Source: an uncultured Candidatus Saccharibacteria bacterium
GTDB lineage: Bacteria; Patescibacteriota; Doudnabacteria; UBA920
DNA length: 64,000 bases
Assembly (NCBI GenBank): GCA_964532425.1
Contig: CAZHIA010000003.1
Coordinates: forward strand, 201,748 to 265,747
Direction of reading: 5' to 3'
The notes beneath the pieces are model-generated. The model was not told the origin of the DNA and searched no databases. It was given only the letters and a program-made list of their open reading frames with translations. Position numbers and translations under genes: made by a program. The first letter of the stretch is position 1, and each line of letters starts with the position of its first letter. Below, piece after piece: positions 6,582-52,893 of the stretch.

Positions 6582-6821
6582 ATGTACTCGGTATATATCT
6601 TAGAGAATCCCCTAGGGAAGCTCTACATTGGGCAGACCGATAATGTTGCGGAAAGATTGGAAAGGCACAATCGGAGCGGTACAAATTATACATCCCACAA
6701 AGGTCCCTGGAGAATAATTTATACAAAAGAGTTTTTGACCCGTTCCGAAGCGCTAGGGTATGAAAAGTATTTAAAAAGTCTTAAAAGTTCCCGGTATATA
6801 AAAACTGAGATCGTTCGTTAA
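6582..6821 (+). CDS. GIY-YIG nuclease, YhbQ/UPF0213-like (79 aa)
   Basis: VYILENPLGKLYIGQTDNVAERLERHN = GIY-YIG core (YIG, Arg, Glu), aligns with E. coli YhbQ; AAGAG SD-like upstream; ORF begins inside the tRNA fragment. Confidence 0.75.
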   Translation: MYSVYILENPLGKLYIGQTDNVAERLERHNRSGTNYTSHKGPWRIIYTKEFLTRSEALGYEKYLKSLKSSRYIKTEIVR

Positions 6822-6930
6822 TTTTTTTCTTCCACCCTATTGGGGTGTCGCCAAGTGGTAAGGCAGCGCCCTTTGGAGGCGCCATTCGAAGGTTCGAATC
6901 CTTCCACCCCAGCCAGGTGGAAGAAAAAAA
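6822..6930. repeat. perfect 15-bp inverted repeats TTTTTTTCTTCCACC / GGTGGAAGAAAAAAA bracketing tRNA-Gln
   Basis: IR-L 6822-6836, IR-R 6916-6930; exact reverse complements. Confidence 0.8.
6841..6915 (+). tRNA. tRNA-Gln(UUG), CCA encoded
   Basis: cloverleaf: acceptor TGGGGTG/CACCCCA (U1-A72), G73, D arm GCC-AAGTGGTAA-GGC, anticodon arm GCGCC-CTTTGGA-GGCGC (TTG 6873-6875), T arm GAAGG-TTCGAAT-CCTTC. Confidence 0.85.
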
Positions 6931-6946
6931 TTAGCCAATGCATCTA

Positions 6947-7011
6947 GTCAGTGGTAAGACATCCCGATTGGATCGGGACATTCGAAGGTTCGAATCCTTC
7001 CACCCCAGCCA
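6947..7011 (+). tRNA. tRNA-Pro(UGG)-like 3' segment (D arm through CCA) lacking a matching 5' acceptor strand
   Basis: GTC-AGTGGTAA-GAC-A-TCCCG-ATTGGAT-CGGGA-CATTC-GAAGG-TTCGAAT-CCTTC-CACCCCA-G-CCA; 7 nt at acceptor position (ATGCATC) cannot pair with CACCCCA. Confidence 0.45.
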
Positions 7012-19507: not shown

Positions 19508-19678
19508 AGAGGTTATAAGTACACCTGCCGAAAAACGGAAAAGAAATAAGGTAGAAATAAAGTTGAGATACAGTGGAAATACAATTGTATTTCTATGGTA
19601 TTTCTACCATATTTCTATTTATTTCTTGTTTAATTGATTAGTATTCCATTTCGACAAAAGGTCATTTTGAACAGTCTC

Positions 19679-21069: not shown

Positions 21070-21090
21070 GAATTAATGGTTTTCGGTATA

Positions 21091-21188
21091 CAATTCCCAA
21101 TTTCCAATATCCAATTCCCAATGGCTGGATTTTGTTGGGAAACCTGCCTGCCGGCAGGCAGGTTAGAAATTGGGTATTAGAAATTAAT
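21091..21188. repeat. MITE-like element: CCAATTTCCAAT-type arms around GC palindrome CCTGCCTGCCGGCAGGCAGG
   Basis: between rsmH and mraZ; related copy at 36848-36948. Confidence 0.55.
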
Positions 21189-21190
21189 TA

Positions 21191-22195: not shown

Positions 22196-22300
22196 ATACA
22201 AATCTACAGATGTATCCGAATCTACAAATACCTACAAATTCCGGTAAGTGGAATTTGTAGGTATTTGTAGATCTGTAGCAAATTTGTAAATTTGCAGCAC
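22196..22300. repeat. repeat element containing 21-bp perfect IR CTACAAATACCTACAAATTCC / GGAATTTGTAGGTATTTGTAG
   Basis: IR arms 22222-22242 and 22250-22270; TCTACAGAT and TTTGTAAATT units shared with 39692-39790. Confidence 0.6.
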
Positions 22301-22813: not shown

Positions 22814-22917
22814 GCTACGAAACTACGGAATACACGAATCTACGGAAAACTACAAATTCTCTTCATGAAGATCCGTAGTTTTCCGTAGATTCGGATTCTT
22901 TTCGTAGTTTCGTAGTC
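22814..22917. repeat. ~100-bp imperfect palindrome built of CTACGAAACTACGG / CCGTAGTTTTCGTAG units
   Basis: arms ~40 bp each around TCTTCATGAAGA core. Confidence 0.55.
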
Positions 22918-23774: not shown

Positions 23775-23950
23775 ATCGAATCAACGAATGGAACGAATCT
23801 GCGAATATTCTACGAAGCTACGAATTCGTTGATTCGTAGCCCTTCGTAGATTCGCCTGCCTGCCCCGGCACCATCATATGGTGCTCGGGCCTGCCGGTAG
23901 GCAGGCCTGCCTGCCGGTAGGCAGGTCTTGATTCGTAGATTCGATATATT
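23775..23950. repeat. composite repeat: TTCGTAG/CGAAT palindromic units plus two GCCTGCCGGTAGGCAGGC palindromes and GGCACCATCATATGGTGC hairpin
   Basis: intergenic between histidine kinase and response regulator. Confidence 0.5.
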
Positions 23951-28463: not shown

Positions 28464-28467
28464 ATAA

Positions 28468-28551
28468 ATATAAAACCTTTAACATTTAACATTTGACCTT
28501 TAACTTAATACAAAACCGGTCAAATGTCATATGTCAAAGGTTAAATGTTGT
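28468..28551. repeat. MITE-like element, TTTGACATTTGACC family copy 1
   Basis: AACATTTAACATTTGACC ... GGTCAAATGTCATATGTCAAAGGTTAAATGTT inverted arms. Confidence 0.6.
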
Positions 28552-29082: not shown

Positions 29083-29141
29083 AGATATTATTTGGTTTTA
29101 GTATAGAATAGTTTGCGGAAAAACGCAAATCATTGTTACTA

Positions 29142-29222
29142 ACATGCGACATGTAACCTTTGACATTTGACCAACCGAAACAGATTCACGTCAAATGTTA
29201 AATGTCAATTGTCAAATGTCCT
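29142..29222. repeat. MITE-like element, TTTGACATTTGACC family copy 2
   Basis: TAACCTTTGACATTTGACC ... GTCAAATGTTAAATGTCAATTGTCAAATGTCC. Confidence 0.6.
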
Positions 29223-30237: not shown

Positions 30238-30350
30238 GAAATATAATCCTAAACTACGAATAGTATCCAAATGCCCCAAATGGACCCAATTCGATTTGAA
30301 TCATTCGGATTGCGAGTATTCGGAGCATTCGGATTATATTAATATACCTA
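30238..30350. mobile_element. ~100-bp MITE-like derivative (R1-A) of the 42761-43208 GxxExxY cassette, in mreB 5' region
   Basis: ATAATCCTAA...GCCCCAAATGGACCCAATTCGATT...CATTCGGATTGCGAGTATTCGGAGCATTCGGATTATAT; ~80% identical to 48055-48158. Confidence 0.6.
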
Positions 30351-36735: not shown

Positions 36736-36847
36736 TTCATTTGCCTCCTGCTATGGAATTTTTTGTTTACGCCTCATACAATTTTGAAACGCAATTGTAT
36801 TTAAAAGCAATTTGTTTTTTGTGTCAAGATGTGGACAAATGGAAAAA

Positions 36848-36948
36848 TCCAATTTCCAATTCCCAATTTCTAATAAAACACCCAAACTGACCAGTACCAG
36901 TTTGGGTGTTCTGAATTTTTTGGAAATTAGATATTGGAAATTGGAAAT
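36848..36948. repeat. MITE-like element: CCAATTTCCAATTCCCAATTTCTAAT / ATTAGATATTGGAAATTGGAAATTT arms around 13-bp perfect hairpin AACACCCAAACTG/CAGTTTGGGTGTT
   Basis: immediately downstream of pgk stop; same family as 21091-21188. Confidence 0.6.
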
Positions 36949-38175
36949 TTATTTCAATGCTTCTATCCCCGGCAGTTTCTTGCCGGCTAAATATTCCAGC
37001 ATGGCGCCGCCACCGGTGGAGACATGGTCGATATTCTCAAACTGGTGCGATTGCCTCACCGCATCCACCGTTTCTCCGCCACCGACTACGGCATAAGCCT
37101 TGCGGCCGGCAACACCGCCGATGACGCGCGCCAAAGCCATAGTAGCCGTGCGGAACGGCTTGGCTTCAAAATAGCCTAGCGGGCCATTCCAGACGATGGT
37201 TTTGGCTGCTTTGAGCTCTTCCGCATACATGAGAATAGTCTTCGGCCCAACATCCAGGATCATCTCTTGCTTGCCCACCTCATAGGGCGTACGGACCCGA
37301 ATCGAATCGCGGCTCATATTCTTGTCTGCCACTACGACATCCACGGGCAACAGCAGTTTATCCTTGAAATTCTTCGAGATCTCAAAAGCAATGCGTTCCG
37401 CCCCGTCTTCCGCTTTCGACAATCCGACTTCCATACCTTTCGCTTTGAAGATCAATGTAGACAATCCCCCGCCAAGCAGGATCTTGTCAGCCTTTTCCCC
37501 GAGATGGGTAAGCGTCTTGGCTTTGTCGGAAATTTTAATGCCACCCATGAGCAGGACAAAGGGTTTCTTGTGCTTATGAGTCACGACATCAAGCGATTTA
37601 ATCTCTTGCTCCAGTAACGGGCCACAATATGACGGTAATAATTTCGTAATGACAGCTGTCGACGCGGCAGCCCGATGGCACACGGAAAAAGCGTCGTTGA
37701 CATAGACATCACCCAAACGAGCCAGACACCGCGCGAAATATTTGTCATTCTCCTCTTCACCCTTGTAGAAGCGGAGGTTTTCCAGCATGACAATATCCTT
37801 GGCCGTAATATTCTTGAGCTGGTCAGCGTGCAGGTCAGCCATAATGTTCCCGGTGTAGAAGATGAGATGGCTAATGGGGTACTCAGGCAGCGGGTGATGA
37901 GTTTCCAAAAACTTATACCCTAAATGCCCGGCAAGGACCTTGGCCACGGGCTTCAACGACAAACTCTTATCCCGGCCCTCGGGCCTTCCCAAATGCCCGC
38001 AGAGAATAATGCGATTATTCCCTTCCTGAAGCATCCGAATGGTCGGAATAATGGAGGCAATGCGAAAATCATCCGCCACCTTGCCGGTCTTATCGTCAAT
38101 CGGAACATTCACATCCACGCGCAGAAGGATGGTTTTATTTTTTAGGGTAGTGGGTTTTAGATACTTGATGGACAT
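36949..38175 (-). CDS. pgk: phosphoglycerate kinase
   Basis: MSIKYLKPTT...RVDVNVP; GGGA/GGGETV nucleotide-binding motifs. Confidence 0.9.
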   Translation of the reverse strand: MSIKYLKPTTLKNKTILLRVDVNVPIDDKTGKVADDFRIASIIPTIRMLQEGNNRIILCGHLGRPEGRDKSLSLKPVAKVLAGHLGYKFLETHHPLPEYPISHLIFYTGNIMADLHADQLKNITAKDIVMLENLRFYKGEEENDKYFARCLARLGDVYVNDAFSVCHRAAASTAVITKLLPSYCGPLLEQEIKSLDVVTHKHKKPFVLLMGGIKISDKAKTLTHLGEKADKILLGGGLSTLIFKAKGMEVGLSKAEDGAERIAFEISKNFKDKLLLPVDVVVADKNMSRDSIRVRTPYEVGKQEMILDVGPKTILMYAEELKAAKTIVWNGPLGYFEAKPFRTATMALARVIGGVAGRKAYAVVGGGETVDAVRQSHQFENIDHVSTGGGAMLEYLAGKKLPGIEALK

Positions 38176-38655
38176 ATGATACCGATATACGGATTTGAAT
38201 ACTGATGATACGGATAAATACGGATCACCCCTTCCAGTTATCTATCCTCACAATACGCTTGGGTTTGATGTATTTATCCCGAAAATTGACCAGGATTCCA
38301 AGTTTTAGACCACTCTCTTGAAGGTACCGTTGTACTTGATAATAAACGTCTTTTGTTAATAACCGCTTAGCCTTAAACTCGAGTAGCACCAGCCCTTTCA
38401 CTATACCATCTGCAATATTATTTGAATCCCCGATTCTCACTTCCGTTTCAAACCCTATTCCTTTTTCTTTGAATAAGCGCTTAACCACCTCTACGTATTG
38501 CTTCTCTCGAGCATATGGGCCGACTTCGTTATGTGCCGCAAACAGTACACCATTAATGTCAAACGTCAAATCCTCGTAAATCAGTTTACGTTCTCTAGGT
38601 TTGATATCCGTATTATCAGTATCATCCGTACCCATCAGTATATCCGTATCATATT
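38176..38655. mobile_element. GxxExxY-gene cassette flanked by imperfect inverted repeats of ATACGGAT/CAGTAT units
   Basis: flanks 38180-38224 and 38598-38652 are reverse-complement related; inserted between gap and pgk. Confidence 0.5.
38225..38635 (-). CDS. GxxExxY-family protein (PD-(D/E)xK nuclease-like)
   Basis: HNEVGPYAREKQYVEVV ... VLLEFKAKRLL ... GLKLGILVNFR; paralog of 42768..43127. Confidence 0.65.
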   Translation of the reverse strand: MGTDDTDNTDIKPRERKLIYEDLTFDINGVLFAAHNEVGPYAREKQYVEVVKRLFKEKGIGFETEVRIGDSNNIADGIVKGLVLLEFKAKRLLTKDVYYQVQRYLQESGLKLGILVNFRDKYIKPKRIVRIDNWKG

Positions 38656-39691: not shown

Positions 39692-39790
39692 CAAATTTAC
39701 AGATGGTCACAAATCTACAGATACCTACCTATTTCCAATCCTGCATATCTGTAGTTATTTGTAAATTGGCTACTATCTGTAGATTGGCAT
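39692..39790. repeat. repeat element of TCTACAGAT/TTTGTAAATT family
   Basis: AAATTTACAGATGG...AAATCTACAGATACCTACC...ATATCTGTAG...TATCTGTAGATTGG; same motif set as 22196-22300. Confidence 0.55.
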
Positions 39791-41109: not shown

Positions 41110-41283
41110 GACAAATAGTGACTAGCGATTAATGAATAGTAAACAGTAAATAGTTTCGGACAATTAAATTACAGAACACCCACGACTACACTCAAGACTT
41201 CTTAGTACGTTCCCTCTCCAATTCATGGACAAGGGTACCCCAAATTTGCCAAAGGCAAATGAGAGGAATCCCCTGGAGAGAGG

Positions 41284-41786
41284 CAGGGAGAGGTTAACAT
41301 ACGACCTTCCTGATGGTTTCCAATATCCCTTCCATGTTACTATCTAAATCATTATTCCAGAATCTTAAGACCGTATACTTGTGTTCTTCTAAAAACTCTT
41401 GTTTGCTTTTGTCCTTCTGTGAGACTCCTATGGTACCATGTTGGCTGCCATCGAGTTCTATAACCAATCTTTTGCTCTGGCAACAGAAATCTACTACATA
41501 ATCGCCAATTGGCACTTGCCTCTTAAATTTAAGACCATTAAACCTGTTCCCTCGCAAAAAATACCATAACTTAGCTTCCCACGGGGTGGATTTCTTTCTG
41601 AGAAGCTTTGATACTATTGTCAGGTTTTTCCCTTCCAGAATCTAACCTCTCTCCTGTCCTCTCTCCATGCAATGGAGAGAGGAACCTTCTACACAGACTT
41701 TCTGATATTTATAATTCGCATAGATAGTATTAATTTCCACAGTACGTCCCCTCCCCAATGCATGGGGAGGGACAGGGAGAGGTTAA
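41284..41786. mobile_element. DUF559-gene cassette bounded by 14-bp direct repeats CAGGGAGAGGTTAA
   Basis: direct repeats at 41284-41297 and 41773-41786; internal CTCC...CATG...GGAG palindromes (41659-41682, 41746-41773). Confidence 0.5.
41294..41557 (-). CDS. DUF559 (Vsr-like endonuclease fold) protein, N-terminally truncated
   Basis: VPIGDYVVDFCCQSKRLVIELDGSQH ... VLRFWNNDL; TTG start. Confidence 0.6.
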   Translation of the reverse strand: MRGNRFNGLKFKRQVPIGDYVVDFCCQSKRLVIELDGSQHGTIGVSQKDKSKQEFLEEHKYTVLRFWNNDLDSNMEGILETIRKVVC

Positions 41787-42763
41787 AGCCGGGGTTTGTT
41801 TTTCCTCCCCATTACCTTCTTTACCGCACTGACAATGGCTTTTGTACCCATTCCGTATTTTTCGGCCAGTTCATTAGGCGTACCTGACTCGCCAAACACA
41901 TTCGGCATGCCGACCATTTCGATAGGCACGGGGCAGTGCTGTGCCAGCACCTCGCAGACCGCACTACCGCAGCCAGCCATTGTCTGGTGTTCCTCCAGTG
42001 TAACTACGGCCCCGCATTTTTGTGCTGCTGCCACAATCGTCTCAACATCGATCGGTTTGATGGTGTGATTATTGATCACCATCACGCTGAGACCTTCTTT
42101 TTCGAGTTCCCGGGCAGCAAGCAGTCCGCTGTAGAGTATCGGCCCGCTGCCGATTATCGCCGCGTCAGCTCCCTCCCGAAATACGACAGCCTTGCCGATC
42201 TCGAACGGAGCGTCCTCAGTGGTCATCACGGGCGACTTTTCCCGACCCAGTCGAAAATATACCGGTCCGGTAGTTTCAGCGGCTGCTATGGCCGTTTTTT
42301 TGGCTTCTACGGCATCACACGGAACGATCACGGTCAAATTCGGGAGGACTCGGGTAATTGCCACATCTTCGAGCGCCTGGTGAGTCGCCCCGTCAGGGCC
42401 AACCGAGACTCCGGCGTGGCAACCGGCAATCTTTACATTGGCCTGGCTGTAACATACGCTCACGCGCAGCTGATCCCAGGACCGTCCCGGTGAGAATACG
42501 GCATATGAGGTCACAAACGGAATCTTTCCGGCCAGCGCCATCCCCGCTGCCACACCCATCATATTCTGTTCAGCTACTCCACACTCAACGAACCGTTCCG
42601 GGTATTGTTTAGCAAACGCTTCAACGCGGGTGCTTTCTGCCAGATCCGCGGTCAGCACAACCACATTCTCGTCGGCCGCCCCGGCTTCCAATACACCATC
42701 ACCAAAACCATTACGAGTAGGGACTTGTTCGATGTCAGGTTGTCCAATCTTAGAGTTCAACAT
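41783..42763 (-). CDS. transketolase, C-terminal (pyrimidine-binding) subunit
   Basis: PTRNGFGDGVLEAG...; start ATG lies inside the left TIR of the adjacent cassette. Confidence 0.8.
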   Translation of the reverse strand: MLNSKIGQPDIEQVPTRNGFGDGVLEAGAADENVVVLTADLAESTRVEAFAKQYPERFVECGVAEQNMMGVAAGMALAGKIPFVTSYAVFSPGRSWDQLRVSVCYSQANVKIAGCHAGVSVGPDGATHQALEDVAITRVLPNLTVIVPCDAVEAKKTAIAAAETTGPVYFRLGREKSPVMTTEDAPFEIGKAVVFREGADAAIIGSGPILYSGLLAARELEKEGLSVMVINNHTIKPIDVETIVAAAQKCGAVVTLEEHQTMAGCGSAVCEVLAQHCPVPIEMVGMPNVFGESGTPNELAEKYGMGTKAIVSAVKKVMGRKNKPRL

Positions 42764-43208
42764 AATCCTAATTCCCCGAATTAATATCCAAATTCCCCGA
42801 ATAACTGCTATTAAGTACGCGCTTTGGAGACAATCGATACGCTCGAAAATTAACAAGCAATCCTAATTCTAATTTAGATGCTGTTAAATATCTTTGCATC
42901 TGCAAATAATCTTCTTTAGTAATATATGGTTTTGCTTTGAGATCAATAACTATTTTATTCTCAGCCAAGAAATCAACCCTGTTTCCCTTAGGTGATCCTT
43001 CTATGAATAGTTTAATTTCGTACTCCCGTCGATACTCAATTTGTTCTTCTATCAACATTTTTTCGAATTCATCACAATACTGTCTTTCCGACGCAAAACG
43101 TCCCAGCTTTTTATGGACCTTAAACACAATCCAACAATTTTATATGATAATTCTGGCTCCACTATTTGAGGCATTTGGATTGCAGTATTCGGGGAATTAG
43201 GATTATGT
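42761..43208. mobile_element. 448-bp TIR-bounded cassette encoding a GxxExxY protein
   Basis: TIR CATAATCCTAATTCCCCGAAT at 42761-42781, reverse complement at 43188-43208 (21 bp perfect; ~26 bp with internal duplication on left). Confidence 0.7.
42768..43127 (-). CDS. GxxExxY-family protein (PD-(D/E)xK nuclease-like)
   Basis: VDFLAENKIVIDLKAK ... ELGLLVNFR; C-terminal 12 aa encoded by the TIR. Confidence 0.6.
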   Translation of the reverse strand: MFKVHKKLGRFASERQYCDEFEKMLIEEQIEYRREYEIKLFIEGSPKGNRVDFLAENKIVIDLKAKPYITKEDYLQMQRYLTASKLELGLLVNFRAYRLSPKRVLNSSYSGNLDINSGN

Positions 43209-45389
43209 TTCCTTTCCTTGTAAAAACCCTATTATCTGCTCCCGGTGCCTGCGATAAATAATGGATACGCCGACCAAAATAAACCCGAGGGCTATGAACG
43301 ATACAACTCTAAAGCTCAAGTCCAATACGAGGAGATCGTACAAAAAGACCTTCAGAATAGTCACGGCGAACAAGACGACGGCCAGTTTTTTAAGCAATGA
43401 GTTGTTGCGGAAGACTCCCCAGAACATCATCACCGCCGAATACACGATCCACCACAGGCTCAAGATGAGGTTGCGGGCATTTTTTGAATCAAAACCCCGG
43501 TAATGCTCCACAATCTCCCATGAGACAGCTAGCCACAACAACAAACTCGCTCCTACATTGAACACATCACTCAGCTGATTCTGACCCTCGCCGCGGCGGT
43601 AGATATACGCGGCAAACAGCAAGGCCGCAGCCTCAAGTACCATTAATTCGAATTTGGTATTCATCAAGAAAACCGGGTTAGCGTCATATGGCAGCACGAG
43701 AACGCGTACCAGGCTAAACACCAGTAAGATCGCGGCCGTAGCCATAAGCAGCTTTCGTTTGGCCAATGCGGCAATCAGGAGCAACAGCGCCGGATACAAC
43801 ACCCACCATAACGCCATCCACTGGCTGCGAGCCAAGTCAGTCGTCCCGACCAGGGCCGCGGCAATATCCCAGCTGACTCCCGCCCACAGGACCAGGATTG
43901 CAACAATCTCCATAGCATCCCGCGCCTTGTCTCCGGTTTGCGGGTCCGGATACCGGCTATAGAGCCAGCCAGCATACAAAAGCGCCAAGGTATCGGCAAA
44001 CATCAGACCGAATTTGGCATTGAACAGGAAAACGAGATCTTGTGACGTATACGGCTCCACGACGGATTTGAACAGCGCCAAGAACAGAATCACCACACTC
44101 CACATGCGGAGCTCTTCGCGCTTCAATAATGCGCCGATCGTAATACCAAACAACCCCAAAGCCAACCAAGCGAGAGCCAAGGCCTTCCCCTGCCATTCCC
44201 AACCGGCGGCACAGACCAGCATGACAGCTCCCACAATCGATAATCCGTAGTTCAGCATACGGTATTCCAGCCGGTCAACTAAGGCATAAGCAAACAGGAA
44301 CAGCACACCGCCGAGCAACGCCACCGGTGCAAGCAGCGAATGATAGTTCTCATTAAGAAGCAGCGCGATGGATATAAAATAGAACAAGCCGGACAGAGTC
44401 GCTACAATTGAAGCATCTTTTTCGAAATTTTTCGGAAGCACCCCCTGTGCGTGATGATACCTGGTCAAAAAACCGAGACCGAGCACGAATAGCACAGACG
44501 TGAAAATGATAAAGAACAGGCTCGGATAGGTATTGCCCGCATTCGAGTAAGCGGAACCCCAGACGGCAAAATCGAGCGTTGCCCCAACCAGGGCTAGCAG
44601 CATCAATTCCAGCCAATATTTTCTCGCCAGAACGACCAACACAGCAATGTTAAGCAGCGTAAGATAAATGAGCAGCGGCCCCTGCTGGTCATGACCGGTA
44701 GACAAAACGAGCGGTGACCCATAAGCCCCAAAAAATGCCAATGCCCCCAAAGCCAGAGAAGAATGCCGATATGCCAGCCAGACGGATAGCGCGGCAACAC
44801 CGAGCATAAGCACGAACGCCAGCGGCTGGGGCAGCAATCCATAAAAATGGAAGCCGGCATACAAAGTGAAATACAACAAGGCAATACCGCCTCCTGTAAT
44901 GGCTAGCGCGTAATTACCATACCGTTCCTTCCACAATTCTCCAAGATAGATCAGCAATCCGCCAACGGCCAATCCGAGCGCAATACGGACCCACTCATTG
45001 ATCCAGCCCATGTCAACGGCGATCTTATAAAAAAACGCAACGCCTAAAACCAGAGCAGCGACCCCGATCTTGTTGAGCCAAGAAATCGCGCGGTCCGTAT
45101 TCATCTCGCTGTGCCGTTCCTCAGGCCTGGCAGAGACAGGGGCTTGGAAGGTCCGTGCTTCCGGCTCGCGGTGCGACGGAAAAGGCGTATGATGAATTTC
45201 CGGCTGCTGCAGCGCGGCATTGTATTCGGCTTCGGTCGGCGGACGTGGCGCAGGGCGCGGCGGAGCGGACGCAAGTCCCTGGCTCCGCAGACGCGCTTCC
45301 AATTCATGTACGCGATTGTTGATACTGGCAATCCAAAAGATCAGAATAAGAACGACAACGAACAGTACGAATTCAATGAATCCGGACAT
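43203..45389 (-). CDS. DUF2339-like polytopic membrane protein
   Basis: 728 aa, >20 predicted TM helices in repeated blocks; stop codon overlaps right TIR. Confidence 0.55.
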   Translation of the reverse strand: MSGFIEFVLFVVVLILIFWIASINNRVHELEARLRSQGLASAPPRPAPRPPTEAEYNAALQQPEIHHTPFPSHREPEARTFQAPVSARPEERHSEMNTDRAISWLNKIGVAALVLGVAFFYKIAVDMGWINEWVRIALGLAVGGLLIYLGELWKERYGNYALAITGGGIALLYFTLYAGFHFYGLLPQPLAFVLMLGVAALSVWLAYRHSSLALGALAFFGAYGSPLVLSTGHDQQGPLLIYLTLLNIAVLVVLARKYWLELMLLALVGATLDFAVWGSAYSNAGNTYPSLFFIIFTSVLFVLGLGFLTRYHHAQGVLPKNFEKDASIVATLSGLFYFISIALLLNENYHSLLAPVALLGGVLFLFAYALVDRLEYRMLNYGLSIVGAVMLVCAAGWEWQGKALALAWLALGLFGITIGALLKREELRMWSVVILFLALFKSVVEPYTSQDLVFLFNAKFGLMFADTLALLYAGWLYSRYPDPQTGDKARDAMEIVAILVLWAGVSWDIAAALVGTTDLARSQWMALWWVLYPALLLLIAALAKRKLLMATAAILLVFSLVRVLVLPYDANPVFLMNTKFELMVLEAAALLFAAYIYRRGEGQNQLSDVFNVGASLLLWLAVSWEIVEHYRGFDSKNARNLILSLWWIVYSAVMMFWGVFRNNSLLKKLAVVLFAVTILKVFLYDLLVLDLSFRVVSFIALGFILVGVSIIYRRHREQIIGFLQGKET

Positions 45390-47601: not shown

Positions 47602-48057
47602 TCATACCAGATTAGTTCGTTCTATGCTTTCTATCTCCCTAATTCGGCGCTTGTGGCGTTCCTCGGTGCCAAATGGAGTCTGTAAAAATGCTTTGACGAT
47701 CTTTCTTGCCTCAACCACGGTGATGAAGTCGGCTGGCAGGCTCAGTACATTCGCAAAATCATCATGACGACTCGCCTTGGCTTCTTTGATATTCCAAACC
47801 AGAGCCGACCGCACGCCCCTGAATTTATTAGCTACGATAGAAACCCCTTGGCCACTGCGGCAAATCAACAGTCCCATATTAGTCTTCGGCTGCTTTGCAA
47901 CTTCAGTCGCAACCTTGGTAGCATAGGGAGGATAATCATCACTCTTGTCTAATTTCTCCGGACCCAAATCCACATACTCTATCCCCTGCTTCACAAAAAA
48001 TTTCTTCAATTCTTCCTTAAGTTTATAGCCTCCGTGGTCAGATGCGATAAATAACAT
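47602..48057 (-). CDS. rpiB: ribose-5-phosphate isomerase B
   Basis: MLFIASDHGGYKLKEEL ... LICRSGQGVSIVANK. Confidence 0.9.
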   Translation of the reverse strand: MLFIASDHGGYKLKEELKKFFVKQGIEYVDLGPEKLDKSDDYPPYATKVATEVAKQPKTNMGLLICRSGQGVSIVANKFRGVRSALVWNIKEAKASRHDDFANVLSLPADFITVVEARKIVKAFLQTPFGTEERHKRRIREIESIERTNLV

Positions 48058-48158
48058 AATCCTAATGCTCCGAATTGGTATCCGTATGCCCCGAATGGAC
48101 CCATTCGATTCGGGTCATTCGGATTGCAAGCATTCGGATAATTCGGATTATATTTACA
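48055..48158. mobile_element. ~100-bp MITE-like derivative (R1-B) of the GxxExxY cassette; terminus overlaps rpiB start codon
   Basis: CATAATCCTAATGCTCCGAAT...GCCCCGAATGGACCCATTCGATT...CATTCGGATTGCAAGCATTCGGATAATTCGGATTATAT. Confidence 0.6.
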
Positions 48159-51515: not shown

Positions 51516-51593
51516 GACATTTAACCTTTGACATATGACATTTGACCTGCTGCAATGTATGTTAAATGTTAATGGTCAAATGTTAAATGTTGC
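51514..51593. repeat. MITE-like element, TTTGACATTTGACC family copy 3
   Basis: ACATTTAACCTTTGACATATGACATTTGACC ... TTAAATGTTAATGGTCAAATGTTAAATGTT. Confidence 0.6.
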
Positions 51594-51594
51594 T

Positions 51595-52893
51595 TTATTT
51601 CGTTTCCCCCAACGTCACTTGCACCGTCTTTTCACTGCCTTTATCATACACCTTCATAGTCACCGTATCACCGGCATTGGAGGAACCCAGTGCGTCTGTT
51701 AACGTATGGTTTTCATTAATCTGCTGCCCATTCACCTCTTCGATAATGTCATTTTCCACCAGCCCTGCCTTGTCAGCCGGGCTCCCCGGAATCACCGCAA
51801 ACTCGTTGGCGTTCTGGCCGCGTATGACCAGCGCACCGTAGTTTTTCGGCAGTTTTTCCTGCTGGGCAACATCGGCAGTAATAATCACGTACCGGACACC
51901 CAGATACGGTCTCGTAATCTTTCCGCTTTTCTGGAAACTGGTCACTGCCTTGCTGGCTGCATTGGATGGGATGGCAAAGCCGACAAGCTGGCCCTGTTGG
52001 TCAACTGCCGTATTGATGCCAATCACTTGTCCTACAACGTTCAAAAGCGGCCCGCCAGAGTTGCCGGGGTTAATAGCCGCATCCGTCTGGATGACTCCCG
52101 AGAGTTCCTCGCTGCCGGTCTCCCCGCCTGCCGTAATGCGCCGCCCGATGCCTGACACAATACCGGTCGTGACCGTATTTTGGTATTGTCCCAGACTGTT
52201 GCCGATGGCAATAACGCGCTGGCCAACCTGCAGTTGCGAAGAGTCCGCCAAAGACAGCTTCGGGGCGTTTTGAATATTAACTTTTACGATGGCCAAGTCG
52301 TTCACCGGGTCCCGCGACAAAACCTGGGCATCGTATTTTTTCCCGTCCGAGGTCAATACCGTATAGCTCGCCTGAGTATCTTCAACTACATGCTTGTTAG
52401 TCAAAATCAAACCATCGCTACTGATGAAAAAACCGGTACCCGCGCCGACTTGCTGGACATTGGGTGACGTAGGAGCAGCAGGCTGCTGGCCACCGCCATT
52501 ATTGAAGAAAAAATTGAAAAAGGGGTCATTTTCGAAAGGATTAATCCCATACCCCGGGATCTTGCTCAAATCCTTGGAAATAACAATAGAGACCACGGCC
52601 GGACTGGTTTTTTTGACAACATCGATGACCGCGGAATCCTCTGTCAGTGATACGGATTGCTGGAGAGAGGCATTACCGCTTTGACTGCCGAGGGCCCGGT
52701 CTATGCCGGGAATCTTAAGGCCGTACCACACGCCGAACACGCCGCCTGCCGCGCCTGCCATCATACTGACCACAATGGTCAGTATCAGCGTACTAACGCT
52801 GAGTGATGGCCCTTTGCGCTCATGCGACTGAGCAACGGAAGGTATTTGCTGAATAGGGTTTGTGTTGATAGGTTCCATAAAATGTAAGATCAA
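51595..52893 (-). CDS. htrA: HtrA/DegP-family serine protease with PDZ domain
   Basis: TM anchor; GSGFFIS..LILTNKHVV, DLAIVKV, GNSGGPLLN; C-terminal PDZ. Confidence 0.85.
   Translation of the reverse strand: MILHFMEPINTNPIQQIPSVAQSHERKGPSLSVSTLILTIVVSMMAGAAGGVFGVWYGLKIPGIDRALGSQSGNASLQQSVSLTEDSAVIDVVKKTSPAVVSIVISKDLSKIPGYGINPFENDPFFNFFFNNGGGQQPAAPTSPNVQQVGAGTGFFISSDGLILTNKHVVEDTQASYTVLTSDGKKYDAQVLSRDPVNDLAIVKVNIQNAPKLSLADSSQLQVGQRVIAIGNSLGQYQNTVTTGIVSGIGRRITAGGETGSEELSGVIQTDAAINPGNSGGPLLNVVGQVIGINTAVDQQGQLVGFAIPSNAASKAVTSFQKSGKITRPYLGVRYVIITADVAQQEKLPKNYGALVIRGQNANEFAVIPGSPADKAGLVENDIIEEVNGQQINENHTLTDALGSSNAGDTVTMKVYDKGSEKTVQVTLGETK

What the first reader, a model, noticed from the sequence alone, without database searches (positions are those of the whole stretch)
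42761..43208. 448-bp TIR-bounded mini-element encoding only a GxxExxY (PD-(D/E)xK-like) protein, wedged between tktC and a DUF2339 gene
A 21-bp perfect terminal inverted repeat CATAATCCTAATTCCCCGAAT (42761-42781; reverse complement at 43188-43208, extending to ~26 bp with an internal 21-bp duplication on the left end) brackets a single 119-aa GxxExxY-family ORF. The element's termini read ...TTAGGATTATG outward on both sides. On the left, this ATG is the start codon of the transketolase C-subunit gene, with an SD-like AGGA box supplied by the TIR. On the right, the TIR overlaps the stop codon of the DUF2339 gene and opens only an 18-codon ORF. GxxExxY proteins are abundant, poorly characterised nuclease-fold proteins. 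Here one appears as the sole cargo of a transposon-like unit, which suggests it may be the mobility nuclease of a previously undescribed minimal element.
Basis: seen in the sequence. Interest (0 to 1): 0.8.

Follow-up and report, generated by a model that had tools for sequence, protein, structure and literature searches.

The report
Nuclease gene nested in mobile palindrome
The 448-bp unit is a real insertion of a compact selfish DNA element of Patescibacteria: two repeat-built inverted arms around a small nuclease gene (broken in this copy). The family also has many gene-less mini-copies and lands between, and in other genomes inside, host genes.

Summary
A perfect 23-nt inverted repeat (42759-42781 / 43187-43209) brackets a GxxExxY (PF13366/TIGR04256) gene between DUF2339 and tktC.

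- **The gene is broken.** The 119-aa ORF is the tail of a 135-codon gene with a 1-nt deletion at 43122-43125. Two further assemblies carry the same 119-aa ORF.
- **It is an insertion.** Syntenic relatives have DUF2339 and tktC overlapping by 11 nt or 4 nt apart, with no element. The unit has 34.6% GC against 52-55% in the flanking genes.
- **It belongs to a family.** Each arm holds about four CCGAAT-type units in a fixed polarity, with the gene at the apex.
  - Intact 446-nt copies with the same ATAATCC...GGATTAT ends sit at other loci in other genomes.
  - Gene-less palindromes of about 95 bp are commoner: two lie in this window and about 20 in 11 MAGs.
  - The gene-less copies sit just upstream of start codons.
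- **The pattern recurs.** A second GxxExxY subfamily, also in this window, has its own conserved arms. Related cassettes lie in frame inside FolD and RseP genes (a RecG case was read from protein sequence only) or fused to prepilins and archease.
- **Both parts are under constraint.** The protein is a PD-(D/E)XK fold with invariant catalytic residues and dN/dS of 0.04-0.13. The arms are conserved well above neutral sites.

That the nuclease drives mobility is inferred, not shown.

The parts
42759..43209 (-). Whole cassette, from the outer end of one arm to the outer end of the other. The conserved family termini ATAATCC...GGATTAT span 42762-43206.
   Evidence: IR. Alignment to the 446-nt intact copies L003 and L005. 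The gene-less profile splits into positions 1-57 (43206-43150) and 30-96 (42836-42762). GC 34.6% against 52-55% in the flanking genes.
43150..43209 (-). 5' arm in gene orientation. It holds four CCGAAT-type units: the outer 23 nt are a perfect IR, and the inner units carry the gene's ATG (43172-43174).
   Evidence: 89% identical to the L003 arm, against 46% at third codon positions of the core.
43203..43205 (-). TAA stop codon of DUF2339, supplied by the outer unit of the 5' arm.
   Evidence: The DUF2339 C-terminus is 6-7 residues shorter than in L107 and L109.
43128..43174 (-). N-terminal 16 codons of the GxxExxY gene (MPQIVEPELSYKIVGL..), in a different frame from the rest of the gene.
   Evidence: ORF 43052-43174. 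hmmsearch hit in this frame. Alignment.
43122..43125 (-). Site of the frameshift: 1 nt is missing from a pyrimidine run (TTGTG-TTTAAGG against TTGTGTTTTAAAG).
   Evidence: It is the only indel in alignment A3. The same 119-aa ORF appears in Logan contigs from SRR11567520 and SRR11567528.
42768..43127 (-). Remaining 119 codons of the GxxExxY PD-(D/E)XK nuclease gene, carrying E30, D68 and D78-x-K80. The stop TAG lies at 42768-42770.
42759..42805 (-). 3' arm, with ATTCGG-type units. It encodes the disordered C-terminal tail YSGNLDINSGN and the stop codon, and it ends in TTAGGATTATG.
   Evidence: Tail pLDDT below 50. 82-89% identical to the arms of L003 and L005.
42761..42763 (-). ATG start codon of tktC, supplied by the outer unit of the 3' arm.
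   Evidence: The tktC N-terminus is 2-3 residues shorter than in relatives.
48056..48151 (-). Gene-less copy of the same element family (96 bp palindrome) at the TIM|RpiB junction. Its 3' end GGATTATG supplies the ATG of the downstream gene.
   Evidence: nhmmer scores 81 bits sense against 46 antisense.
30243..30337 (-). Gene-less copy of the same family (95 bp) just upstream of mreB. A copy sits at the orthologous position in Ca. Doudnabacteria MFD03726 (L025).

Best explanation
The 448-bp unit is the gene-bearing form of a compact, polar, palindromic selfish element of Doudnabacteria-like Patescibacteria.

**Structure**
- Two arms of about 45 nt each carry about four CCGAAT-type units in inverted orientation.
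- In the wider family, unit spacing peaks at 9 nt, roughly one helical turn.
- The arms enclose a 135-codon GxxExxY PD-(D/E)XK nuclease gene at the apex of the palindrome.
- Arms and gene move as one unit.
- Gene-less derivatives of about 95 bp keep only the arms and are the commoner form.

**This insertion**
- The element landed in the overlapping stop/start junction of DUF2339 and tktC.
- It is tolerated because its termini replace what it destroyed: ..ACATAA gives the upstream stop, and ..GGATTATG gives the downstream start.
- The nuclease ORF stops 5 nt before that start.
- In RNA the arms can pair, which would bring the upstream stop and the downstream start together.

**Inferred**
- The nuclease binds the iterated units of its own arms.
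- It makes the DNA breaks that let the host's repair or replication machinery copy or move the arms, with or without the gene.
- It would act in cis on gene-bearing copies and in trans on gene-less ones.
- This copy has lost its reading frame and is a decaying, probably non-autonomous member.

**Confidence split**
- About 0.9 that this is a mobile-element insertion of a defined family.
- About 0.45 that GxxExxY is the mobilising enzyme.
For: **Shown: it is an insertion**
- L107 has DUF2339 and tktC overlapping by 11 nt; L109 has them 4 nt apart. Neither carries arms.
- The unit has a GC deficit.

**Shown: it moves as a unit**
- Intact 446-nt copies with ATAATCC...GGATTAT ends sit at ORF87|HisKA (L003), ruvX|galT (L005) and upstream of another gene (L028). 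A 474-nt copy lies upstream of ruvX (L027).
- The window lacks the L003 insertion at the syntenic site.

**Shown: the arms are cis-elements**
- They are 69-89% identical between genomes, against 45-51% at third codon positions.
- Polarity is conserved: 81 and 66 bits in sense against 46 and 40 in antisense.

**Shown: gene-less derivatives**
- Pattern hits occur in 11 MAGs, nearly all 84-111 bp palindromes, and several genomes hold more than one.
- L003 carries a copy in the RR|PCC junction, where the window has only TAA-TC-ATG.

**Shown: generality**
- In 52 of 73 metagenomic GxxExxY loci the 5'/3' flanks form an IR that beats all 20 shuffles.
- Units are polar: 3.2 against 0.7 per 5' flank.
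- A subfamily only 34% identical has its own arms, ATGATACnGATATAC...GTATATCnGTATCAT, at three sites in four genomes.

**Shown: intragenic copies**
- In-frame copies with arms lie inside FolD and RseP; a RecG case was read from protein sequence only. Fusions to prepilins and archease also occur.

**Shown: the protein looks functional**
- E30, D68 and K80 are invariant, and D78 is conserved in at least 90% of sequences.
- dN/dS is 0.04-0.13.

**Shown: RNA folding**
- The arms form a long-range RNA stem, z -5.8.
Against: - PD-(D/E)XK nucleases hydrolyse DNA. From general knowledge, none is known to perform strand transfer alone, so integration at sites without homology is unexplained.
- No consistent target-site duplication is seen.
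- Among the 11 MAGs with pattern hits, only one showed a cognate gene-bearing copy with the strict pattern. These MAGs are incomplete and the pattern is strict.
- In this window the only cognate gene is broken.
- Cognate gene-less copies were not enriched within the 2.5-kb flanks of 40 gene-bearing loci: score 14.7 against 13.9.
- The same junctions (TIM|RpiB, RR|PCC) hold unrelated heptamer palindromes in other genomes. Some palindromes may therefore arise or spread without GxxExxY.
Confidence: 0.6

Rival explanations
1. The nuclease gene is a parasite of the palindromes, not their mobiliser. On this view the hairpin elements spread or arise by some other route. The GxxExxY gene then invades their apex in a homing-like way: it cleaves the tip of a gene-less cognate palindrome, and repair from a gene-bearing copy uses the ~45-nt arms as homology.
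For: - The gene always sits exactly at the centre of symmetry, and all four units of each arm are retained.
- Gene-less copies far outnumber gene-bearing ones, and they occur in MAGs with no detected cognate gene.
- Unrelated heptamer palindromes without any nuclease occupy the same junctions in relatives.
- Other small nuclease genes (GIY-YIG, DUF559) occupy equivalent junctions.
Against: - The DUF2339|tktC empty sites carry no palindrome to invade, so this insertion would need two steps.
- Arms co-diversify with the gene across two subfamilies and many sites, which is what a unit that travels together would show.
- The arms are conserved well above neutral sites.
Confidence: 0.25
2. The system is domesticated or works at the RNA level. 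The arms would be operon-punctuation or 5'-UTR hairpins useful to the host for coupling, stability or processing. GxxExxY would be a co-evolving maintenance or RNA-processing nuclease, in a REPIN/RAYT-like mutualism. It might cleave the arm stem in the transcript.
For: - Gene-less copies have a fixed polarity relative to the downstream gene. They end in TTAGGATTAT, with the start codon at offsets -2 to +8 in 11 of 17 scored copies and up to +28 in the rest.
- Copies upstream of mreB and dnaJ sit at the same position in different genomes.
- The arms fold as a long RNA stem.
- Recurrent in-frame fusion to archease, the RtcB RNA-ligase cofactor by general knowledge.
- tRNA-splicing endonucleases appear among the fold matches.
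Against: - Sense and antisense strands fold equally well (-29.2 against -29.4 kcal/mol), so there is no sign of RNA-specific G-U pairing.
- Presence or absence varies between close relatives, the GC is low, and insertions occur inside essential genes. These look selfish rather than domesticated.
- The second subfamily's terminus has no Shine-Dalgarno-like motif.
Confidence: 0.1
3. The region is not mobile at all. It would be ancestral intergenic DNA with a regulatory inverted repeat, or an invertible (phase-variable) segment bounded by the IR.
For: The IR lies between two genes and overlaps their stop and start codons.
Against: - Syntenic relatives have no spacer at all.
- The same unit occurs at unrelated loci.
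- No recombinase lies nearby.
- Orientation relative to neighbours is constant across assemblies and across most loci: 40 of 49 downstream and 42 of 48 upstream neighbours are co-directional.
Confidence: 0.02

Closest known systems
MITEs and their autonomous TIR transposons (e.g. Correia/CREE elements of Neisseria, RUP of S. pneumoniae)
   Same: - Terminal inverted repeats.
- Short gene-less copies that outnumber a longer coding form sharing the same ends.
- Intergenic location next to gene starts, co-transcribed with the host genes.
- A hairpin forms in the RNA.
   Different: - The only gene is a ~115-residue PD-(D/E)XK domain. It is not a DDE, serine, tyrosine or HUH transposase.
- No target-site duplication is seen.
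- The arms are arrays of iterated 6-nt units rather than a single TIR.
- The element has a strict polarity.
REPIN/RAYT systems (PMC3116915, PMC3337134)
   Same: - Palindromic doublets of about 100 bp are dispersed in intergenic DNA.
- A single small enzyme gene is flanked by the same repeats in inverted orientation.
- Different enzyme subfamilies pair with different repeat families within one genome.
   Different: - RAYTs are HUH Y1 transposases, whereas this protein is a PD-(D/E)XK nuclease.
- RAYTs are single-copy and vertically inherited at a fixed locus. These cassettes sit at different loci in related genomes, and inside genes.
- Here the gene lies inside one palindrome, not between two REPs.
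Rickettsia palindromic elements (RPE; from general knowledge, Ogata et al. 2000)
   Same: - Palindromic repeats of reduced genomes.
- They insert in frame within protein-coding genes as well as between genes.
- They are translated as extra peptide segments.
   Different: - RPEs carry no gene, and no cognate enzyme is known.
- Here a subset carries a nuclease domain that becomes part of the host protein.
Free-standing homing endonuclease genes and inteins
   Same: - A small nuclease gene that is variably present at the same junction among relatives.
- Some copies lie in frame inside host proteins.
- Different nuclease families (GxxExxY, GIY-YIG, DUF559) occupy equivalent junctions.
   Different: - There is no Hint splicing domain.
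- The gene carries its own conserved inverted arms.
- Copies are found at many non-homologous sites.
- Gene-less arm-only copies exist.
TIGR-Tas arrays (PMC12045711)
   Same: Short periodic repeats, also found in Patescibacteria.
   Different: - TIGR arrays alternate two 8-12-nt repeats with 9-nt spacers, in direct orientation.
- They lie next to a Nop-domain Tas gene.
- None of these features is present here.

Membership tests
GxxExxY protein (TIGR04256 / Pfam PF13366 PDDEXK_3) | Profile match above the curated cut-off | tested here: met
   PF13366 scores 74.6 bits against a cut-off of 22. TIGR04256 scores 80.3 bits against 35, over positions 1-115 of 116, after frameshift repair.
GxxExxY protein (TIGR04256 / Pfam PF13366 PDDEXK_3) | PD-(D/E)XK catalytic residues E ... 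D ... (D/E)xK on an alpha-beta-beta-beta-alpha-beta core | tested here: met
GxxExxY protein (TIGR04256 / Pfam PF13366 PDDEXK_3) | Intact open reading frame | tested here: not met
   A 1-nt deletion at 43122-43125 splits the gene into 16- and 119-codon parts. Two Logan assemblies carry the same 119-aa ORF.
Classical TIR transposon / insertion sequence | Terminal inverted repeats, several copies, and empty sites in relatives | tested here: met
Classical TIR transposon / insertion sequence | Encodes a transposase of a known catalytic class (DDE, HUH, serine or tyrosine) | tested here: not met
   The only ORF is PF13366, and no other family is hit. The unit is only 446-448 nt long.
Classical TIR transposon / insertion sequence | Target-site duplication of fixed length | tested here: inconclusive
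   Flanks of about 25 copies show no consistent direct repeat. A palindromic TA or AT duplication cannot be told apart from an extension of the TIR.
MITE (applies to the gene-less copies at 30243-30337 and 48056-48151) | Short, non-coding, TIR-bounded, multi-copy, sharing ends with a longer coding element | tested here: met
   The gene-less profile matches both ends of the gene-bearing unit. Hits occur in 11 MAGs.
REPIN/RAYT | The associated gene is an IS200-like HUH tyrosine transposase | tested here: not met
   The protein is PD-(D/E)XK.
REPIN/RAYT | The enzyme gene is single-copy and vertically inherited at a fixed locus | tested here: not met
   Orthologues 64-73% identical (65% for L027, 64% for L028) lie at five different loci. 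One case of a shared locus exists: GAPDH|PGK in the window and L115.
Homing endonuclease gene / intein | The nuclease cleaves the cognate empty site and is copied by repair | not testable with these tools
   This needs a cleavage assay on the DUF2339|tktC junction, or on gene-less palindromes.
Homing endonuclease gene / intein | A protein-splicing (Hint) domain in the in-frame copies | tested here: not met
   The FolD, RseP and RecG fusions show only PF13366 plus host domains.
Invertible promoter segment (inverton) | A site-specific recombinase, and both orientations present in the population | tested here: not met
   No recombinase was found among the ORFs scanned around the element. The orientation is the same in all assemblies and related loci.
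TIGR array | Alternating edge and loop repeats with 9-nt spacers next to a Nop-domain gene | tested here: not met
   The unit structure and inverted arrangement differ.

The most novel reading that the evidence does not exclude
GxxExxY proteins would be the dedicated enzymes of a previously unrecognised class of prokaryotic mobile element. Each element is a nuclease-only cassette of about 450 bp. Its iterated-hexamer arms are the nuclease's own recognition array. It propagates itself and its ~95-bp arm-only derivatives between genes, and in frame within genes, without any conventional transposase. This would give a function to a large uncharacterised family: 5,817 clusters at 50% identity reached with this subfamily's profile alone.
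Probability: 0.35. Interest if true: 0.9.

Novelty: new variant of a known kind. Interest (0 to 1): 0.78.

Why it matters
- **A function to test.** PF13366/TIGR04256 is a large family listed as 'Unknown' in the only survey that mentions it (PMC3424549). Full-text searches for GxxExxY, PF13366 or TIGR04256 returned a handful of papers, none about mobility. This finding gives a concrete hypothesis: a nuclease that acts on its own flanking repeat arrays. It also gives defined substrates to test.
- **Selfish DNA in reduced genomes.** Highly reduced Patescibacteria genomes carry an active layer of selfish DNA. It occupies stop/start junctions, donates stop and start codons, and even becomes part of essential proteins (FolD, RseP, probably RecG).
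- **Possible tool.** If the nuclease reads the iterated units, it would be a compact sequence-directed DNA enzyme with an unusual modular target.
- **Annotation.** These cassettes can account for fused 'GxxExxY-pilin' or 'GxxExxY-archease' gene models, shortened gene ends, and AT-rich islands in CPR MAGs.

Tried and rejected
- **TIGR-Tas arrays.** Rejected after reading their definition.
- **RNAalifold covariation on 16 gene-less copies.** Uninformative, because the repeated units allow alternative pairing registers.
- **Sense versus antisense folding energy of gene-less copies.** No difference, so there is no evidence for an RNA-only structure.
- **Promoter and terminator scan of 42500-43500.** Nothing above shuffles.
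- **Rfam, 41-49 kb.** No family matches the hairpins.
- **PADLOC.** No defence-system match for either GxxExxY protein.
- **PDB sequence search.** No hit.
- **IMG/VR scan.** No relatives found.
- **Cognate gene-less copies within 2.5 kb of 40 metagenomic gene-bearing loci.** Not enriched over other loci. This fits a density of about one per 30 kb but offers no support.
- **Looser genome-wide pattern.** Not used, because a 16-base pattern was estimated to give a few hundred chance hits.
- **Target-site duplication.** No consistent duplication at about 25 copies.
- **Microhomology at the empty site.** L107 (AACATAA...GGACTAT) resembles the element ends, but L109 does not share this. Treated as possible coincidence.
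- **Programmed frameshifting at UUUA-AGG.** Considered for the broken copy but not tested.
Full report
**1. Observation**

The region was read directly.
- The inverted repeat is 23 nt and perfect: AACATAATCCTAATTCCCCGAAT at 42759-42781, with its complement at 43187-43209.
- The 21-mer with up to 3 mismatches occurs three times in the window, against 0.00 expected.
- The left arm has a second unit (42786-42802, 94% to 42765-42781). The right arm has a degenerate second unit (43163-43180). Each arm is therefore about 45 nt.
- ORF 42768-43127(-) is PF13366 (E 1.1e-20). Its neighbours are a transketolase C-terminal subunit gene and a DUF2339 gene.

**2. The gene is frameshifted**

- The Pfam match began at profile position 12.
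- A 40-codon ORF in another frame (43052-43174) starts MPQIVEPELSYKIVGL, which is the missing N-terminus.
- Restoring one T gives a 135-aa protein. It matches TIGR04256 over positions 1-115 of 116. Its closest homologues are also 135 aa and 68-73% identical.
- DNA alignment with two intact copies shows a single 1-nt gap at TTGTG-TTTAAGG (43122-43125) as the only indel in the unit.
- Two Logan assemblies carry the same 119-aa ORF. A sequencing error is therefore unlikely.

**3. It is an insertion**

- tktC homologues 78-79% identical keep the synteny DUF2339-tktC-pfkB-...-GAPDH-PGK.
- In L107 the DUF2339 and tktC genes overlap by 11 nt. In L109 they are 4 nt apart. Neither has arms or a palindrome.
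- In the window the DUF2339 C-terminus is 6-7 residues shorter and the tktC N-terminus 2-3 residues shorter than in these relatives.
- The stop (GAA ACA TAA) and the start (GGATTATG) come from the element's termini.
- The unit has 34.6% GC, against 52-55% in the flanking genes.

**4. It belongs to a family with conserved, polar arms**

*Gene-bearing copies elsewhere.* Intact copies with the same ends (ATAATCCKAAT...ATTAGGATTAT) occur at four other places:
- Between an 87-aa ORF and a histidine kinase in Ca. Doudnabacteria MFD03726 (L003).
- Between ruvX and galT (L005).
- Upstream of ruvX (L027).
- Upstream of another gene (L028).

Three of these are exactly 446 nt long. The window has the syntenic kinase operon but no element there.

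*How the arms relate to the gene.*
- The arms pair up to and including ATGACCCGAAT / ATTCGGGTCAT.
- The start codon and 3-4 codons therefore lie in the 5' arm.
- A disordered tail (YSGHSDINSGN, pLDDT below 50) and the stop codon lie in the 3' arm.
- The TIGR04256 domain forms the 'loop'.

*Conservation.* The arms are 69-89% identical between genomes. Third codon positions of the core are 45-51% identical, and pS is about 0.75. The arms are therefore constrained as DNA.

**5. Gene-less copies**

- The window holds two palindromes of about 95 bp from the same family, at 48056-48151 and 30243-30337.
- A strict 5'-arm pattern found 22 hits in 21 stretches from 11 Patescibacteria MAGs. Nearly all are 84-111 bp palindromes, and only one is gene-bearing.
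- A profile of the gene-less copies matches the long element as two halves, positions 1-57 and 30-96.
- Polarity is fixed. Sense scores exceed antisense. The 3' end TTAGGATTAT is followed by the start codon of a co-directional gene such as mreB, dnaJ, the PCC-domain gene or rpiB, at offsets -2 to +8 in 11 of 17 scored copies and up to +28 in the rest.
- One copy in L003 sits in the RR|PCC junction, where the window has only TAA-TC-ATG.
- No consistent target-site duplication is seen.

**6. Generality**

- In 52 of 73 metagenomic loci of this subfamily, the gene's 5' and 3' flanks form an inverted repeat that beats all 20 shuffles. Mean scores are 18.8 for the IR, 9.3 for shuffles and 10.9 in direct orientation.
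- The flanks are arrays of C[GTA][AG]AT units. There are 3.2 per 5' flank against 0.7 of the complement, with the mirror image on the 3' side. Spacing peaks at 9 nt.
- The second GxxExxY gene of this window (38225-38635, 34% identical) has different arms, ATGATACnGATATAC...GTATATCnGTATCAT.
- Those arms are conserved with its orthologues in four genomes at three sites: GAPDH|PGK twice, Nramp|infC and PCC|SpoU.
- Neighbours are mostly co-directional and very close.

**7. Copies inside genes**

- A profile search of 1.84 billion cluster representatives found 5,817 hits. Many are longer proteins.
- Pfam shows in-frame GxxExxY-prepilin fusions in 12 of 20 sampled proteins.
- It also shows GxxExxY-archease fusions, and GxxExxY domains embedded in FolD, the RseP protease and RecG.
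- DNA of the FolD and RseP cases shows the same kind of arms flanking the embedded domain, translated as N/S/G/D/P-rich linkers.
- The RecG protein also contains what looks like a translated gene-less copy. This was seen at protein level only.
- Caveat: cluster representatives may favour long fused forms, so these frequencies are not meaningful.

**8. The protein**

- The AlphaFold model has pLDDT 87.4 and pTM 0.81.
- E30, D68 and K80 are invariant, and D78 is conserved in at least 90% of sequences.
- dN/dS among close pairs is 0.04-0.13.
- There is no PADLOC hit and no PDB sequence hit.

**9. Mechanism**

*Shown.*
- A unit made of polar repeat arms plus a nuclease gene is inserted here.
- Related units and arm-only derivatives occupy many non-homologous sites.
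- Both the arms and the protein are under constraint.
- The termini supply stop and start codons.
- The arms can pair in RNA (dG -120 kcal/mol, z -5.8).

*Inferred.*
- The nuclease recognises the iterated units of its own arms and makes the breaks that lead to copying or movement. Host functions would complete the reaction.
- Expression relies on read-through transcription and on translational coupling. The upstream stop lies 29 nt before the cassette's ATG, and the cassette's stop lies 5 nt before the tktC ATG.
- This copy is decaying.

*Main weaknesses.*
- PD-(D/E)XK enzymes have no known joining activity.
- There is no target-site duplication.
- Many genomes carry gene-less copies but no detected cognate gene.
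- Unrelated heptamer palindromes occupy the same junctions.

The chief rival is that the gene homes into the apex of palindromes that spread by other means.

**10. Comparison and novelty**

- The system behaves like a MITE/autonomous-element pair and like REPIN/RAYT. Its in-frame insertions recall Rickettsia palindromic elements and inteins. It fails a defining feature of each of these: no known transposase class, no HUH enzyme, no Hint domain.
- Full-text searches found the family described only as 'Unknown' (PMC3424549). They found nothing on its mobility or on such elements in Patescibacteria.
- I rate it a new variant of known kinds. It has a fair chance of being a new class if the nuclease proves to be the mobilising enzyme.

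Noticed in passing
window 38173-38655 (-): A second, intact GxxExxY cassette (136-aa ORF 38225-38635) sits between GAPDH and PGK. Its arms differ from the first cassette's: ATGATACnGATATAC...GTATATCnGTATCAT. The PGK ATG (38173-38175) lies inside its 3' terminus. Orthologues with the same arms occur at three sites in four genomes.
   Followed up: yes
window 41214-41785 (-): A short DUF559 (Vsr-like) ORF (41294-41557, 38.6% GC) lies between tktC and pfkB. It is bracketed by the inverted repeat TGGAGAGAGGCAGGGAGAG / CTCTCCTGTCCTCTCTCCA (41274-41292 / 41649-41667, 84%), with a further palindrome at 41649-41781. It may be another nuclease-in-palindrome cassette.
   Followed up: partly
window 19539-19619, 21090-21190, 22214-22272, 22835-22893, 23810-23925, 28467-28549, 29141-29215, 36843-36950, 39712-39785, 51516-51595: Many intergenic regions hold palindromes built from other short periodic units (AACATTT, ATCTACA, CCAATTN, TAGAAAT and others). 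Most lie directly upstream of start codons. None has a nuclease gene in this window.
   Followed up: partly
L110 312-387, L005 5223-5296, and window 48056-48151: The same TIM|RpiB junction carries three unrelated heptamer palindromes in three related genomes: TTAGCNN/GCTAAAC, GTAG/CTAC-type and CCGAAT-type. The RR|PCC junction is empty in the window, holds a CCGAAT-type copy in L003, and holds a CTACAGAA-type palindrome in L113.
   Followed up: partly
L110 6958-7390: At the GAPDH|PGK junction, where the window has GxxExxY #2, a relative has a 98-aa GIY-YIG gene. It is flanked by the direct repeats AAATTGCGAG(GA)GTGCAGCC and by one inverted copy. L107 has an unrelated 98-aa ORF there, and L109 has nothing.
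   Followed up: no
P0362, L031, L041, L047, L075; also P0361, P0363-P0365, P0372, P0378-P0380, P0384, P0388, P0390: GxxExxY ORFs read through the 3' arm in frame into archease, which lacks its own ATG, or into prepilin-type proteins just before the N-methylation motif. Prepilin peptidase cleavage would release the nuclease as a giant leader peptide.
   Followed up: partly
P0377/L117 (FolD), P0382/L119 (RseP), P0381 (RecG): Complete GxxExxY domains with arm-encoded linkers are embedded in frame inside housekeeping proteins. The RecG sequence also contains a stretch (RDPNDTNSPELPKQRESNFGTSGWNSDFSGRD) that looks like a translated gene-less palindrome.
   Followed up: partly
window 6814-7010: tRNA-Gln (6841-6915) lies inside a 34-nt inverted repeat (6814-6847 / 6905-6938). 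It is followed by a tRNA-like sequence that shares its 3' half (about 6940-7010), which ARAGORN does not call.
   Followed up: no
window 21142-21162 and 23906-23926: The GC-rich palindromic motif ACCTGCCTGCCGGCAGGCAGG recurs 2.7 kb apart, embedded within AT-rich heptamer palindromes.
   Followed up: no
L113 5319-5405: A 23S_rRNA_IVP / bAvd four-helix-bundle gene, another family known from intervening sequences, lies near a GxxExxY cassette in a related genome.
   Followed up: no
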